Positions 52,633 to 57,556 of a DNA stretch of 64,000 nt are shown piece after piece. Each line of letters starts with the position of its first letter. The first letter of the stretch is position 1. A model generated the notes under the pieces. The model did not search any database. It was not told the DNA's origin and saw only the letters and a program-made list of their open reading frames with translations. The stretch lies in NCBI RefSeq assembly GCF_045037415.1, contig NZ_CP173438.1. One strand, 5' to 3'. The DNA comes from Escherichia coli (GTDB taxonomy: Bacteria; Pseudomonadota; Gammaproteobacteria; Enterobacterales; Enterobacteriaceae). A program made the translations under genes and the position numbers.

Positions 52633-53700
52633 ATGGATAAGAGTAAGCGCCATCTGGCGTGGTGGGGTGTCGGGGCACTGGCGGTGGCTGCCGTCGTGGC
52701 GTGGTGGCTGTTGCGCCCGGCGGGTGTGCCGGAAGGCTTTGCTGTCAGCAATGGGCGCATTGAAGCGACGGAAGTGGATATCGCCAGCAAAATTGCCGGG
52801 CGTATCGACACCATTCTGGTGAAAGAAGGCCAGTTTGTTCGAGAAGGTGAAGTGCTGGCGAAGATGGATACTCGCGTGTTGCAGGAACAGCGACTGGAAG
52901 CCATCGCGCAAATCAAAGAAGCACAAAGTGCCGTTGCCGCCGCGCAGGCTTTGCTGGAGCAACGCCAAAGCGAAACTCGTGCCGCACAGTCGCTGGTTAA
53001 TCAACGCCAGGCAGAACTGGACTCCGTAGCAAAACGTCATACGCGTTCCCGCTCACTGGCACAACGGGGGGCAATTTCTGCGCAACAGTTGGATGACGAC
53101 CGCGCCGCCGCTGAGAGCGCCCGAGCTGCGCTGGAATCGGCAAAAGCTCAGGTTTCTGCTTCTAAAGCCGCTATAGAGGCGGCGCGCACCAATATCATTC
53201 AGGCGCAAACTCGCGTCGAAGCGGCACAAGCCACTGAACGGCGCATTGCCGCAGATATCGATGACAGCGAACTGAAAGCCCCGCGTGACGGACGCGTGCA
53301 GTATCGGGTTGCCGAGCCAGGCGAAGTGCTGGCAGCAGGCGGTCGGGTGCTGAATATGGTCGATCTCAGCGACGTCTATATGACCTTCTTTCTGCCAACC
53401 GAACAGGCGGGCACGCTGAAACTGGGCGGTGAAGCACGTTTGATTCTTGATGCTGCACCAGATCTGCGTATTCCCGCGACCATCAGTTTTGTCGCCAGCG
53501 TCGCCCAGTTCACGCCAAAAACTGTCGAAACCAGCGATGAGCGGCTGAAATTGATGTTCCGTGTCAAAGCGCGTATCCCACCGGAATTACTCCAGCAGCA
53601 TCTGGAATATGTCAAAACCGGATTGCCGGGCGTAGCGTGGGTGCGGGTGAATGAAGAACTTCCGTGGCCTGACGACCTGGTGGTGAGGTTGCCGCAATGA
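52633..53700 (+). CDS. yhiI: HlyD-family membrane fusion protein
   Basis: ORF 52597..53700 trimmed to [17 protein letters not shown] start (355 aa); coiled-coil-rich periplasmic adaptor; ATGA overlap with rbbA. Confidence 0.85.
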
Positions 53701-56432
53701 TGCATCTGGAACTGGTTCCCGTCCCGCCTGTCGCGCAACTGGCGGGCGTGAGCCAGCATTATGGAAAAACCGTTGCGCTGAACAATATCACACTCGATAT
53801 TCCGGCCCGTTGCATGGTCGGGCTGATTGGACCGGATGGTGTCGGTAAATCGAGCTTGTTGTCGTTGATTTCCGGTGCTCGCGTCATTGAGCAGGGCGGC
53901 GTGATGGTGCTGGGCGGCGATATGCGCGACCCGAAGCATCGCCGCGACGTCTGCCCGCGCATCGCCTGGATGCCGCAGGGGCTGGGCAAAAATCTCTACC
54001 ACACCTTGTCGGTGTATGAAAACGTCGATTTTTTCGCCCGCCTGTTCGGTCACGACAAAGCGGAGCGGGAAGTGCGAATTAATGAGCTGCTGACCAGCAC
54101 CGGATTAGCACCGTTTCGCGATCGTCCGGCAGGGAAACTCTCCGGCGGGATGAAGCAAAAACTTGGGCTGTGCTGTGCGTTAATCCACGACCCGGAATTG
54201 TTGATTCTTGATGAGCCAACAACGGGGGTTGACCCGCTCTCTCGCGCCCAGTTCTGGGATCTGATCGACAGTATTCGCCAGCGGCAGAGCAATATGAGCG
54301 TGCTGGTTGCCACCGCCTACATGGAAGAGGCCGAACGCTTCGACTGGCTGGTAGCGATGAATGCCGGAGAAGTGCTGGCAACCGGTAGCGCCGAAGAGTT
54401 GCGGCAGCAAACGCAAAGCGCCACGCTGGAAGAAGCATTTATAAATCTGTTACCGCAAGCACAACGCCAGGCGCATCAGGCGGTAGTGATCCCACCGTAT
54501 CAACCTGAAAACGCAGAGATTGCCATCGAAGCGCGCGATCTGACCATGCGTTTTGGTTCCTTCGTTGCCGTTGATCACGTCAATTTCCGCATTCCACGCG
54601 GGGAGATTTTTGGTTTTCTTGGTTCGAATGGCTGCGGTAAATCCACCACCATGAAAATGCTTACCGGATTGCTGCCCGCCAGCGAAGGTGAGGCGTGGCT
54701 GTTCGGGCAGCCGGTTGATCCAAAAGATATCGATACCCGCCGTCGTGTGGGCTATATGTCGCAGGCGTTTTCGCTCTATAACGAACTCACCGTGCGGCAA
54801 AACCTGGAGTTACATGCTCGTCTGTTTCATATCCCGGAAGCGGAAATTCCCGCGCGAGTGGCTGAAATGAGCGAGCGTTTTAAGCTCAACGACGTCGAAG
54901 ATGTATTGCCGGAGTCATTGCCGCTCGGCATTCGCCAGCGGCTATCGCTGGCGGTGGCGGTGATTCATCGCCCGGAGATGCTAATCCTCGATGAGCCGAC
55001 TTCTGGCGTCGATCCGGTGGCGAGGGATATGTTCTGGCAGTTGATGGTGGATCTCTCGCGCCAGGACAAAGTGACTATCTTCATCTCCACCCACTTTATG
55101 AACGAAGCGGAACGTTGTGACCGTATCTCACTGATGCACGCCGGAAAAGTGCTCGCCAGCGGTACACCGCAGGAGTTGGTTGAGAAACGCGGAGCCGCCA
55201 GTCTCGAAGAGGCATTTATCGCTTATTTGCAGGAAGCGGCAGGGCAGAGCAACGAAGCCGAAGCGCCGCCTGTGGTACATGACACTACCCACGCGCCACG
55301 TCAGGGATTCAGCCTGCGCCGTCTGTTTAGCTACAGCCGCCGCGAAGCGCTGGAACTGCGACGCGATCCGGTACGTTCGACGCTGGCGCTGATGGGAACG
55401 GTGATCCTGATGCTGATAATGGGTTACGGCATCAGTATGGATGTGGAAAACCTGCGCTTTGCGGTGCTTGACCGCGATCAAACCGTCAGTAGCCAGGCGT
55501 GGACGCTCAATCTCTCCGGTTCCCGTTACTTTATCGAACAGCCACCGCTCACCAGTTATGACGAGCTTGATCGTCGGATGCGTGCGGGCGATATCACGGT
55601 GGCAATTGAGATCCCTCCCAATTTCGGGCGCGATATCGCGCGTGGTACGCCCGTGGAACTCGGTGTCTGGATCGACGGTGCGATGCCGAGCCGCGCCGAA
55701 ACGGTAAAAGGCTACGTGCAGGCCATGCACCAGAGCTGGCTACAGGATGTGGCGAGCCGACAGTCCACACCCGCCAGCCAAAGCGGGCTGATGAATATTG
55801 AGACGCGCTATCGCTATAACCCGGACGTAAAAAGCCTGCCGGCGATTGTTCCGGCGGTGATCCCGCTTCTGCTGATGATGATCCCGTCAATGCTAAGCGC
55901 CCTTAGCGTGGTGCGGGAAAAAGAGCTAGGGTCGATTATCAACCTTTACGTGACCCCCACCACCCGTAGCGAATTTTTACTTGGCAAACAGCTGCCATAC
56001 ATCGCGCTGGGGATGCTGAACTTTTTCCTGCTCTGCGCCCTGTCGGTGTTTGTGTTTGGCGTACCGCATAAAGGCAGTTTCCTGACGCTCACCCTGGCGG
56101 CGCTGCTGTATATCATCATCGCCACCGGAATGGGGCTGCTGATCTCCACCTTTATGAAAAGCCAGATTGCCGCCATTTTCGGTACGGCAATTATCACGTT
56201 GATCCCGGCGACACAGTTTTCCGGGATGATCGATCCGGTAGCTTCGCTGGAAGGTCCAGGACGTTGGATCGGCGAGGTTTACCCGACCAGTCATTTTCTG
56301 ACTATCGCCCGCGGAACGTTCTCGAAAGCGCTGGATCTGACTGATTTGTGGCAACTTTTTATCCCGTTGCTGATAGCCATACCGCTGGTGATGGGCTTAA
56401 GCATCCTGCTGCTGAAAAAACAGGAGGGATGA
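53697..56432 (+). CDS. rbbA: ribosome-associated ATPase, fused double ABC ATPase plus ABC-2 permease domain
   Basis: 911 aa ORF; two Walker A motifs ([18 protein letters not shown]) and two ABC signatures; C-terminal TM domain. Confidence 0.9.
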
Positions 56433-57556
56433 TGCGCCATTTACGTAATATTTTTAATCTGGGTATCAAAGAGTTGCGCAGTCTGCTCGGTGATAAAGCG
56501 ATGCTGACGCTGATTGTCTTCTCGTTTACGGTGTCGGTGTATTCGTCAGCGACCGTTACGCCAGGATCGTTGAACCTCGCGCCGATCGCCATTGCCGATA
56601 TGGATCAATCGCAGTTATCGAACCGGATCGTTAACAGCTTCTATCGCCCGTGGTTTTTGCCACCGGAGATGATCACCGCCGATGAGATGGATGCCGGGCT
56701 GGACGCCGGACGTTATACCTTCGCGATAAATATTCCGCCTAATTTTCAGCGTGATGTCCTCGCCGGACGCCAGCCGGATATTCAGGTGAACGTTGATGCC
56801 ACGCGCATGAGCCAGGCATTTACCGGCAATGGGTATATCCAGAATATTATCAACGGTGAAGTGAACAGCTTTGTCGCGCGCTACCGTGATAACAGCGAAC
56901 CGTTGGTATCGCTGGAAACACGGATGCGCTTTAACCCGAACCTTGATCCCGCGTGGTTTGGCGGGGTGATGGCGATCATCAACAACATTACCATGCTGGC
57001 GATTGTATTGACCGGATCGGCGCTGATCCGCGAGCGTGAACACGGCACGGTGGAACACTTACTGGTGATGCCGATAACGCCGTTTGAGATCATGATGGCA
57101 AAGGTCTGGTCGATGGGGCTGGTGGTGCTGGTGGTGTCGGGATTATCGCTGGTGCTGATGGTGAAAGGCGTGCTGGGCGTACCGATAGAAGGCTCGATCC
57201 CGCTGTTTATGCTGGGCGTGGCGCTCAGTCTGTTTGCCACCACGTCAATCGGCATTTTTATGGGGACGATAGCGCGTTCAATGCCGCAACTGGGGCTGCT
57301 GGTGATTCTGGTGCTGCTGCCGCTGCAAATGCTTTCCGGTGGTTCCACGCCGCGCGAAAGTATGCCGCAGATGGTGCAGGACATTATGCTGACCATGCCG
57401 ACGACACACTTTGTCAGCCTCGCGCAGGCCATCCTCTATCGTGGTGCCGGATTCGAAATCGTCTGGCCGCAGTTCCTGACGCTGATAGCGATTGGCGGCG
57501 CGTTTTTTACCATTGCGCTGCTGCGATTCAGGAAGACGATTGGGACAATGGCGTAA
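56429..57556 (+). CDS. yhhJ: ABC-2 type transporter permease
   Basis: ORF 56348..57556 trimmed to the ATG overlapping rbbA stop ([16 protein letters not shown]); polytopic C-terminus. Confidence 0.85.

What the first reader, a model, noticed from the sequence alone, without database searches (positions are those of the whole stretch)
53697..57556. Start/stop overlaps linking yhiI, rbbA and yhhJ
The yhiI stop overlaps the rbbA start (ATGA) and the rbbA stop overlaps the yhhJ start (ATGATG), indicating a translationally coupled adaptor / ATPase-permease / permease unit resembling a tripartite efflux-like ABC system. The same ATGA coupling occurs at chuU/chuV.
Basis: seen in the sequence. Interest (0 to 1): 0.2.

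Follow-up and report, generated by a model that had tools for sequence, protein, structure and literature searches.

The report
Overlapping genes of yhiI-rbbA-yhhJ operon
The stop/start overlaps are real and join three E. coli genes for a membrane-fusion adaptor, a fused ATPase-permease and a second permease, but this is an already annotated operon using a very common bacterial way of linking the translation of neighbouring genes.

Summary
yhiI (52633-53700) ends in a TGA that shares ATGA (53697-53700) with the rbbA start. The rbbA stop (56430-56432) lies inside ATGATG (56429-56434). The annotated and homologous yhhJ start is 56432, a 1-nt overlap. chuU/chuV also shares ATGA. The window is E. 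coli chromosome, and RefSeq and K-12 annotate the same boundaries.

Such overlaps are ordinary: 7 of 30 same-strand neighbour pairs in this window overlap.

They are not accidental here. In 80 related loci, mostly Proteobacteria:
- An adaptor gene lies directly upstream in 72/72 testable loci, with an in-frame NTGA overlap in 51/72.
- The permease start lies within -4..+7 nt of the RbbA stop in 71/77 loci.
- It follows a Shine-Dalgarno-like CAGGAG encoded by the conserved RbbA C-terminus (KQE).
- Synonymous codon choice favours both signals (z 4-5).

The three proteins are collinear paralogs of YbhG / YbhF+YbhS / YbhR. In 17-18 related loci an outer-membrane factor gene is adjacent.

Translational coupling and a tripartite ABC-2 exporter are therefore well supported by inference, but neither is demonstrated. 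The finding is already known and of low interest.

The parts
52376..52403 (+). sigma-70-like promoter TAGACA-16-TAGTAT upstream of yhiY/yhiI
   Evidence: the only plus-strand promoter-like site in 51900-57800. It corresponds to the constitutive promoter TAGACA-16-TACTAT listed for yhiI-rbbA-yhhJ in PMC3946193.
52457..52570 (+). yhiY, 37-aa small ORF, probably a leader/uORF of the operon
   Evidence: RefSeq annotation. Pfam YhiY PF23514, E 8.6e-28. PMC7815308 lists yhiY-yhiI among uORFs followed by an RNA 3' end and shows Rho-dependent repression of a yhiI fusion.
52633..53700 (+). yhiI, periplasmic adaptor (membrane fusion protein, HlyD family) with one N-terminal TM helix
   Evidence: Pfam HlyD_3, HlyD_D23, Biotin_lipoyl_2. 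NCBIfam RND_mfp above cutoff. 30% identical to YbhG, E 3e-29. Closest solved relatives are EmrA and MacA. TM helix at residues 8-26.
53685..53688 (+). Shine-Dalgarno-like GAGG inside the yhiI 3' end, 8 nt before the rbbA ATG
   Evidence: Sequence read.
53697..53700 (+). Junction 1: ATGA, rbbA start overlapping yhiI stop by 4 nt
   Evidence: An in-frame NTGA is conserved in 51/72 related loci. The adaptor's last Gln codon is CAA in 17/26 loci against 6.2 expected (z 5.4).
53697..56432 (+). rbbA, two ABC ATPase domains fused to an ABC-2 permease domain (911 aa)
   Evidence: Pfam ABC_tran x2 and ABC2_membrane_3 at residues 569-903. NCBIfam RbbA equivalog 1597.8 bits against cutoff 1050. N-terminal part ~41% identical to YbhF; C-terminal part 32% identical to YbhS, E 1e-52. 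TM1 at ~560-583, a ~140-aa loop, then TM2-6.
56422..56427 (+). Shine-Dalgarno AGGAGG inside the last rbbA codons (Q-E-G), 4 nt before the yhhJ ATG
   Evidence: CAGGAG is present in 44/77 related loci. CAG and GAG are used more than same-gene codon usage predicts (z 4.4 and 4.2).
56429..56434 (+). Junction 2: ATGATG; rbbA stop TGA 56430-56432, yhhJ ATG 56432-56434 (1-nt overlap), alternative in-frame ATG at 56429
   Evidence: In relatives the permease start lies within -4..+7 nt of the RbbA stop in 71/77 loci.
56432..57556 (+). yhhJ, ABC-2 permease (374 aa), predicted heterodimer partner of the RbbA permease domain
   Evidence: Pfam ABC2_membrane_3 and ABC2_membrane. 24% identical to YbhR (E 2e-32) and 28% to the RbbA C-terminal part. 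The transmembrane region resembles ABCG-type chains.
57564..57673 (.). REP-like palindromes and terminator-like hairpins between the convergent yhhJ and the aldolase gene
   Evidence: Terminator-like sites at 57587..57564 (-) and 57646-57659 (+). Weak naRNA4/REP-type Rfam hit at 57629-57673, 31.6 bits, below the gathering score of 59.5.
   Evidence: Annotation (shuU 27924-28916, heme ABC ATPase 27157-27927). Sequence GGAGGATCACATGATC.

Best explanation
This is the known E. coli yhiI-rbbA-yhhJ operon, probably led by the small ORF yhiY. It encodes a periplasmic adaptor (YhiI), a polypeptide with two ATPase domains fused to an ABC-2 permease domain (RbbA), and a second ABC-2 permease (YhhJ). One RbbA plus one YhhJ would give a complete 2-NBD/2-TMD ABC-2 (ABCA/ABCG-like) exporter, which YhiI connects towards the outer membrane. 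This is the fused-gene paralog of YbhGFSR. The three genes are read from one mRNA. Ribosomes terminating at the yhiI stop re-initiate at the overlapping rbbA ATG, helped by GAGG 8 nt upstream. Ribosomes terminating at the rbbA stop re-initiate at the yhhJ ATG, which shares one base with the stop and follows AGGAGG encoded by the RbbA tail. This would keep subunit synthesis linked in amount and place. Shown here: the sequence overlaps, the domain content, the paralogy, and the conservation of gene order and junction geometry. Inferred: a single transcript, dependence of downstream translation on upstream translation, the 1:1 RbbA:YhhJ complex, and export function.
For: The overlaps were read directly and match RefSeq and K-12 annotation. 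Domains. Collinear paralogy to YbhG/YbhF/YbhS/YbhR, whose own junctions are -8, -8 and +10 nt. Across 80 loci from other species: an adaptor gene lies directly upstream in 72/72 testable loci, with in-frame NTGA in 51/72; a YhhJ-like gene lies downstream in 77/80, with its start within -4..+7 nt of the stop in 71/77. Synonymous codon choice favours the start codon and the Shine-Dalgarno motif (z 5.4, 4.4, 4.2). OEP outer-membrane factor genes are adjacent on the same strand in 17-18 loci. The only plus-strand promoter-like site is upstream of yhiY and matches the published constitutive promoter for this operon (PMC3946193). RbbA-mCherry localises throughout the membrane (PMC6788730). Four of five native E. 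coli ATGA pairs tested showed coupling by termination-reinitiation (PMC6728339).
Against: No experiment addresses coupling at these two junctions. One of the five tested E. coli ATGA pairs (bioBF) initiated independently. The perfect AGGAGG before yhhJ could drive independent initiation. Predicted local RNA structures at both junctions are no more stable than shuffled sequence (z +1.29 and -0.12), so there is no sign of an occluded ribosome-binding site. The literal overlap at junction 2 is kept in only 11/77 relatives. The codon-bias z-scores are not corrected for shared ancestry. No outer-membrane factor is encoded next to the E. coli operon. In vitro work assigns truncated RbbA a ribosome-linked activity (PMC12096078).
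Confidence: 0.8

Rival explanations
1. The overlaps are passive by-products of genome compaction and start/stop codon drift. Each gene is translated independently from its own Shine-Dalgarno site on a shared mRNA, with no functional coupling.
For: Overlaps are common and not special to this operon (7 of 30 same-strand pairs in the window). Both downstream genes have their own Shine-Dalgarno motifs, AGGAGG being perfect. No significant RNA structure occludes them. The junction 2 overlap is not conserved (11/77). bioBF shows that an ATGA pair can be uncoupled.
Against: The exact -4 register is kept in 51/72 distant loci, with codon choice biased to create ATG. Junction 2 spacing is held to -4..+7 nt in 71/77 loci. 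PMC10666635 reports that overlaps or very short distances are what termination-reinitiation coupling requires (abstract).
Confidence: 0.15
2. RbbA is primarily a ribosome-bound translation factor (E-site ATPase). Its neighbours yhiI and yhhJ are functionally unrelated genes that merely share a transcript.
For: Truncated RbbA lacking the membrane domain modestly changes in vitro translation (about 0.6- to 2.1-fold) and is described as an E-site binder (PMC12096078). RefSeq still names it 'ribosome-associated ATPase/putative transporter'.
Against: The protein carries a full ABC-2 permease domain and is membrane-localised. It has no ABC-F-type match; its ATPase domains most resemble ABCA and DrrA/NodI exporters. 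Adaptor and permease partners are conserved in essentially all related loci, often with an outer-membrane factor. The only in vivo paper linking RbbA to the ribosome and YhjD was retracted in 2025 (PMC12169533).
Confidence: 0.1
3. The three genes are expressed from separate transcripts with internal promoters.
For: The consensus scan is insensitive and covers only sigma-70-type sites. Weak plus-strand terminator-like hairpins occur inside the genes (54008, 54584, 56035).
Against: There is no plus-strand promoter-like site inside yhiI or rbbA. There is no intergenic space at either junction. The literature lists a single unit yhiI-rbbA-yhhJ. rbbA and yhhJ were reported co-upregulated (PMC12502555). 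The total of terminator-like sites (11 on both strands) is within about 2 sd of shuffles (6.1 +/- 2.6).
Confidence: 0.05

Closest known systems
E. coli YbhGFSR (cecR-ybhGFSR operon), ABC-2 exporter with a HlyD-family adaptor
   Same: Same gene order and homologous proteins: YhiI~YbhG (30%, 3e-29), RbbA N-terminal part~YbhF (~41%), RbbA C-terminal part~YbhS (32%, 1e-52), YhhJ~YbhR (24%, 2e-32). Junctions are also tight or overlapping (-8, -8, +10 nt). YbhFSR is reported to export tetracyclines and dyes (PMC7190983, title and abstract; PMC8277102).
   Different: In rbbA the ATPase and the first permease are one polypeptide. There is no adjacent TetR-type regulator like cecR; instead the small ORF yhiY lies upstream. 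The overlaps are -4 and -1 rather than -8. No substrate is known.
Overlapping gene pairs coupled by termination-reinitiation (Huber et al. 2019, PMC6728339; 2023, PMC10666635)
   Same: Co-directional pairs with ATGA or TGATG overlaps and a Shine-Dalgarno motif inside the upstream gene. Such pairs often encode subunits of one complex (abstract of PMC10666635).
   Different: These particular junctions were not among the five E. coli pairs tested (hyfHI, astDB, ydbH/ynbE, menDH, bioBF). Coupling here is inferred.
MacAB-TolC tripartite ABC efflux pump
   Same: An inner-membrane ABC transporter plus a periplasmic adaptor. YhiI shows weak similarity to MacA (E ~1e-4) and stronger similarity to EmrA (2e-9). 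Relatives carry adjacent TolC-family genes.
   Different: The permease domains are of the ABC-2 family (PF12698/PF01061) and resemble ABCG/ABCA chains. There is no MacB/FtsX match. The ATPase is a tandem pair on one chain.
ABC-F translation factors (EttA, Uup, YbiT, YheS)
   Same: Two tandem ABC ATPase domains. Truncated RbbA behaves similarly in in vitro translation assays.
   Different: RbbA has a C-terminal six-helix permease domain, is membrane-localised, and sits in a conserved transporter operon.

Membership tests
Overlapping co-directional gene pair of the termination-reinitiation coupling class | Same-strand neighbours whose stop and start codons overlap by 4 nt (ATGA) or 1 nt (TGATG/TAATG) | tested here: met
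   ATGA at 53697-53700; TGATG at 56430-56434.
Overlapping co-directional gene pair of the termination-reinitiation coupling class | Shine-Dalgarno motif located inside the 3' end of the upstream gene | tested here: met
   GAGG at 53685-53688, 8 nt before the rbbA ATG. AGGAGG at 56422-56427, 4 nt before the yhhJ ATG. CAGGAG is conserved in 44/77 relatives.
Overlapping co-directional gene pair of the termination-reinitiation coupling class | Translation of the downstream gene depends on translation of the upstream gene | not testable with these tools
   Needs reporter constructs with premature stop codons and mRNA quantification, as in PMC6728339.
RbbA (NCBIfam NF033858 equivalog) | Whole-protein score above the curated cutoff | tested here: met
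   1597.8 bits against cutoff 1050, covering residues 12-910.
YbhGFSR-type ABC-2 exporter operon | Gene order adaptor, tandem-NBD ATPase, permease, permease, with pairwise homology of each part | tested here: met
   BLASTP E-values from 3e-29 to 2e-72, collinear. The difference is that ATPase and first permease are fused.
Tripartite (inner membrane / adaptor / outer membrane) efflux system | Inner-membrane energised transporter with NBD and TMD | tested here: met
   RbbA has 2 ABC_tran domains plus ABC2_membrane_3; YhhJ has ABC2_membrane_3.
Tripartite (inner membrane / adaptor / outer membrane) efflux system | Periplasmic adaptor protein of the HlyD/MFP family | tested here: met
   YhiI matches HlyD_3 (2.3e-17), HlyD_D23 and Biotin_lipoyl_2, and NCBIfam RND_mfp at 118.5 bits against cutoff 94.9.
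Tripartite (inner membrane / adaptor / outer membrane) efflux system | Outer-membrane factor (TolC/OEP family) that completes the conduit | tested here: inconclusive
   None is adjacent in the window. 17-18 of 80 related loci have an adjacent same-strand OEP gene; two examples were confirmed as PF02321 (6e-56 and 6e-48). Use of TolC by the E. coli system cannot be tested here.
Tripartite (inner membrane / adaptor / outer membrane) efflux system | Demonstrated export of a substrate | not testable with these tools
   No substrate was reported in the papers found.
MacB-type (FtsX-fold) ABC transporter | FtsX/MacB permease domain with a periplasmic core domain | tested here: not met
   Only ABC-2 family permease models match at E <= 0.01. 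The closest solved permease regions are ABCG-type.
ABC-F soluble translation factors | Tandem NBDs with no transmembrane domain | tested here: not met
   RbbA residues ~560-905 form a six-helix ABC-2 permease domain. The membrane localisation is published.

The most novel reading that the evidence does not exclude
The conserved C-terminal tail of RbbA-type proteins ([K/R]-K-Q-E-x) and the terminal Gln of the adaptor may be held in place mainly by RNA-level selection. On this reading they are kept because they encode the ribosome-binding site (CAGGAG) and the start codon (CAATGA) of the next gene, not because the proteins need them. The operon's translational linkage would then have shaped protein sequence across Proteobacteria. 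The historical 'ribosome association' of RbbA would be secondary to its real role as the ATPase-permease of a tripartite exporter.
Probability: 0.35. Interest if true: 0.35.

Novelty: already known. Interest (0 to 1): 0.15.

Why it matters
It matters little as a discovery. The operon, its boundaries and the overlaps are in RefSeq and K-12 annotation, and ATGA/TGATG coupling is a well-characterised phenomenon. The useful by-product is context for an old puzzle. RbbA is still named a ribosome-associated ATPase, and the main in vivo paper on it has been retracted. Conserved synteny, tight junctions and adjacent outer-membrane factor genes in relatives all point to an uncharacterised YbhGFSR-like exporter. 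This gives a concrete reason to test YhiI-RbbA-YhhJ as a complex.

Tried and rejected
1. RNA folding of 90-nt windows around both junctions and the yhiI start. The minimum-free-energy structures pair the Shine-Dalgarno regions, but energies are no better than shuffles (z +1.29, -0.12, +0.45). No claim of ribosome-binding-site occlusion is made.

2. The search for homologous proteins with RbbA listed only ~97-100% identical E. coli/Shigella entries, which were useless for diversity. It did reveal the singleton RbbA-YhhJ fusion ORFs. Diversity came instead from the representative search, alignment A1 and the genome scan.

3. My first automatic start-codon picker and neighbour filter missed adaptor genes in high-GC loci, where stop-to-stop ORFs run far upstream. 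This was corrected by anchoring on the aligned RbbA N-terminus.

4. PDB sequence searches found no solved structure of RbbA, YhiI or YhhJ themselves.

5. An Rfam scan of 51000-58500 at E <= 1 found no known leader RNA, only a sub-threshold REP-type hit.

6. Structure prediction was considered and not run, because it would not bear on the overlap question.
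Full report
**What the window is.** The 5.3-kb region 52400-57700 is 100% identical to E. 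coli chromosomes such as strain SK1144, and it is present in 5413 of 5426 complete E. coli genomes. RefSeq annotation, transferred to window coordinates, gives:
- yhiY 52457-52570
- yhiI 52633-53700
- rbbA 53697-56432
- yhhJ 56432-57556

All four are on the plus strand. Each of these annotated CDSs opens with ATG, ends with a stop codon and has no internal stop in the window sequence. The K-12 MG1655 record has the same boundaries and the same overlaps.

**Checking the observation.**
- Junction 1 reads GGTGAGGTTGCCGCAATGATGCAT. The rbbA ATG is 53697-53699 and the yhiI TGA is 53698-53700, a 4-nt ATGA overlap.
- Junction 2 reads AACAGGAGGGATGATGCGCC. The rbbA TGA is 56430-56432 and the literal string ATGATG is 56429-56434.
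- Both ATGs at junction 2 are in the yhhJ frame. The annotated start is 56432, giving TGATG and a 1-nt overlap. It is also the homologous one, because relatives begin M-R at the equivalent position. It lies 4 nt after AGGAGG, whereas 56429 lies only 1 nt after it.
- The chuU/chuV comparison is correct: ATGA at 27927..27924 on the minus strand, preceded by GGAGGA.
- Two small corrections. The stated span omits yhiI itself. The second ATG at junction 1 is strain-specific, because codon 2 of rbbA is ACG in K-12-type, E. albertii and Citrobacter sequences.

**Is it more than chance?** Taken alone, an overlap is unremarkable. Of 30 same-strand adjacent gene pairs annotated in this window, 7 overlap: -4 three times, -1 twice, and -8 and -11 once each. 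The literature describes ATGA and TGATG as the standard overlaps in prokaryotes (PMC6728339).

Conservation, however, shows these junctions are maintained. I built an alignment of full-length RbbA-like proteins at 32-58% identity and used it to fetch 80 loci from other species. These are mostly alpha-, beta-, gamma- and delta-proteobacteria, plus a few others.

For the adaptor/RbbA junction:
- An adaptor gene lies directly upstream of the RbbA-like gene in all 72 loci with enough upstream sequence.
- An in-frame ATG, GTG or TTG sits exactly at -4 (NTGA) in 51 of the 72. No other offset exceeds 15.
- Where the adaptor's last codon is Gln, CAA (which creates ATG) is used in 17 of 26 loci, against 6.2 expected from the same genes' codon usage (z 5.4).

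For the RbbA/permease junction:
- A YhhJ-like gene follows in 77 of 80 loci.
- Its predicted start lies within -4..+7 nt of the RbbA stop in 71 of 77. Only 11 of 77 literally overlap.
- The RbbA C-terminus is [K/R]-K-Q-E-x almost everywhere. Gln is CAG in 72/76 loci (56.8 expected) and Glu is GAG in 47/58 (32.1 expected), z 4.4 and 4.2. CAGGAG is present in 44/77.
- A Shine-Dalgarno motif is therefore written into conserved codons.
- These z-scores are not corrected for phylogeny.

**What the genes encode.**
- YhiI is a HlyD-family periplasmic adaptor (HlyD_3, HlyD_D23, Biotin_lipoyl_2). It has one N-terminal transmembrane helix. Its closest solved relatives are EmrA and MacA.
- RbbA has two ABC ATPase domains followed by an ABC-2 permease domain. 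It passes the NCBIfam RbbA equivalog model.
- The RbbA ATPase domains most resemble ABCA transporters among solved structures.
- YhhJ is a stand-alone ABC-2 permease whose membrane region resembles ABCG-type chains.
- Both permease parts show one helix, a ~140-residue hydrophilic loop and five further helices.
- No MacB/FtsX or ABC-F-type match was found.

The three genes are collinear paralogs of the E. coli ybhGFSR operon:
- YhiI~YbhG, 30% identity, E 3e-29
- RbbA N-terminal part~YbhF, ~41% identity
- RbbA C-terminal part~YbhS, 32% identity, E 1e-52
- YhhJ~YbhR, 24% identity, E 2e-32

So rbbA corresponds to a ybhF-ybhS fusion. The ybh junctions are -8, -8 and +10 nt. YbhFSR is reported as a drug and cation exporter (PMC7190983, title and abstract; PMC8277102).

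**The third component.** No outer-membrane factor gene is adjacent in E. coli. In 17-18 of the 80 related loci, an OEP-family gene lies beside the cluster on the same strand, 15 upstream of the adaptor and 2 downstream of the permease. Two examples were confirmed as PF02321 (E 6e-56 and 6e-48). Because only ~1.9 kb upstream of the adaptor gene was fetched, this count is a lower bound.

**Transcription.** The only plus-strand sigma-70-like site in 51900-57800 is TAGACA-16-TAGTAT at 52376-52403, upstream of yhiY. It differs by one base from the constitutive promoter TAGACA-16-TACTAT listed for 'yhiI-rbbA-yhhJ' by Shimada et al. (PMC3946193). Another genomic SELEX paper lists the same unit. rbbA and yhhJ were reported co-upregulated in one transcriptome. 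Adams et al. list yhiY-yhiI among validated small ORFs followed within 200 nt by an RNA 3' end, and found a yhiI fusion more than 2-fold higher in a rho mutant (PMC7815308). The operon therefore probably begins with a leader ORF and is attenuated by Rho.

**Mechanism.** The best-supported model is one mRNA with translational coupling by termination-reinitiation at both junctions. Huber et al. found strict coupling at 4 of 5 native E. coli ATGA pairs using only 99 nt upstream and 30 nt downstream. Removing the Shine-Dalgarno motif reduced re-initiation in 4 of 5 pairs, and bioBF was an uncoupled exception (PMC6728339). A follow-up reports that overlaps or very short distances are required, and that such pairs often encode subunits of one complex (PMC10666635, abstract).

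This fits a 1:1 RbbA:YhhJ transporter (two ATPase domains, two permease domains) with the adaptor translated first. The overlaps, Shine-Dalgarno motifs and their conservation are shown here. The dependence of downstream translation on upstream translation is inferred. Local RNA folding gives no extra support, since it is no more stable than shuffled sequence.

**The 'ribosome' name.** RbbA is annotated as 'ribosome-associated ATPase/putative transporter'.
- A 2025 study used a truncated form lacking the membrane domain and saw modest effects on in vitro translation, about 0.6- to 2.1-fold (PMC12096078).
- The only in vivo study linking RbbA to the ribosome and to YhjD was retracted in 2025 for image concerns (PMC12169533).
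- RbbA-mCherry is distributed throughout the membrane (PMC6788730).
- The conserved operon context found here favours a transporter role. It does not exclude a secondary ribosome interaction.

**Verdict.** Novelty: already known. Interest: low. The most novel reading not excluded is that the conserved RbbA tail and the adaptor's terminal Gln are maintained mainly as RNA signals for the next gene.

Noticed in passing
window 52457-52570 (+), with 52376-52403: The small ORF yhiY (37 aa) sits between the promoter-like site and yhiI. Published 3'-end mapping lists yhiY-yhiI as a candidate uORF-dependent regulatory leader, and a yhiI fusion is derepressed in a rho mutant. The unit is therefore probably yhiY-yhiI-rbbA-yhhJ with attenuation.
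   Followed up: partly
window 56348-56434; proteins P0001, P0002, P0004, P0007, P0020: Public assemblies contain RbbA-YhhJ fusion ORFs of 1247-1286 aa; the five read are each a single-member cluster. They are made by different frameshifts or a small deletion near the A6 run (56415-56420) or the junction. The yhhJ frame is open for 28 codons upstream of its start, so one indel fuses the genes. These are probably sequencing errors or sporadic mutants.
   Followed up: partly
window 7986-8999 (-): yhjD, the membrane protein claimed to partner RbbA in the 2011 paper retracted in 2025, lies about 45 kb away in the same window. It has no operon link to rbbA.
   Followed up: no
window 53700-53702: Codon 2 of rbbA is ATG (Met) here but ACG (Thr) in K-12-type E. 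coli, E. albertii and Citrobacter. The ATGATG at junction 1 is therefore a strain polymorphism, while the ATGA overlap is conserved.
   Followed up: yes
loci L008, L010, L014, L016, L017, L026-L028, L039, L049, L058, L070, L074, L080, L081 (upstream); L073, L077 (downstream): In these relatives a TolC/NodT-family outer-membrane factor gene (Pfam OEP in the two examples scanned) lies directly next to the adaptor-RbbA-permease cluster on the same strand, making four-gene clusters.
   Followed up: yes
window 57665-63265 (-) and 51898-52457: Compared with K-12, this strain lacks yhiJ/yhiL between yhiM and yhiY. Where K-12 has rhsB-yhhH-yhhI, it carries an island between yhhJ and nikR: class II aldolase, HPr, FGGY kinase, PTS IIC/IIB/IIA and a GntR regulator. 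That island has its own overlapping junctions (-11, -8, -4).
   Followed up: partly
window 27157-36109: The chu/shu heme uptake cluster is inserted between yhiD and dctR inside the gad/hde acid-fitness region. Besides chuU/chuV (-4), chuY/hutX overlap by 1 nt.
   Followed up: partly
window 6539-7887 (+): An IS3-family IS1397 transposase with a programmed frameshift lies between yhjE and yhjD.
   Followed up: no
window 57564-57673: REP-like palindromes lie between the convergent yhhJ and aldolase genes. One gives a sub-threshold Rfam naRNA4 hit (31.6 bits against gathering score 59.5).
   Followed up: partly
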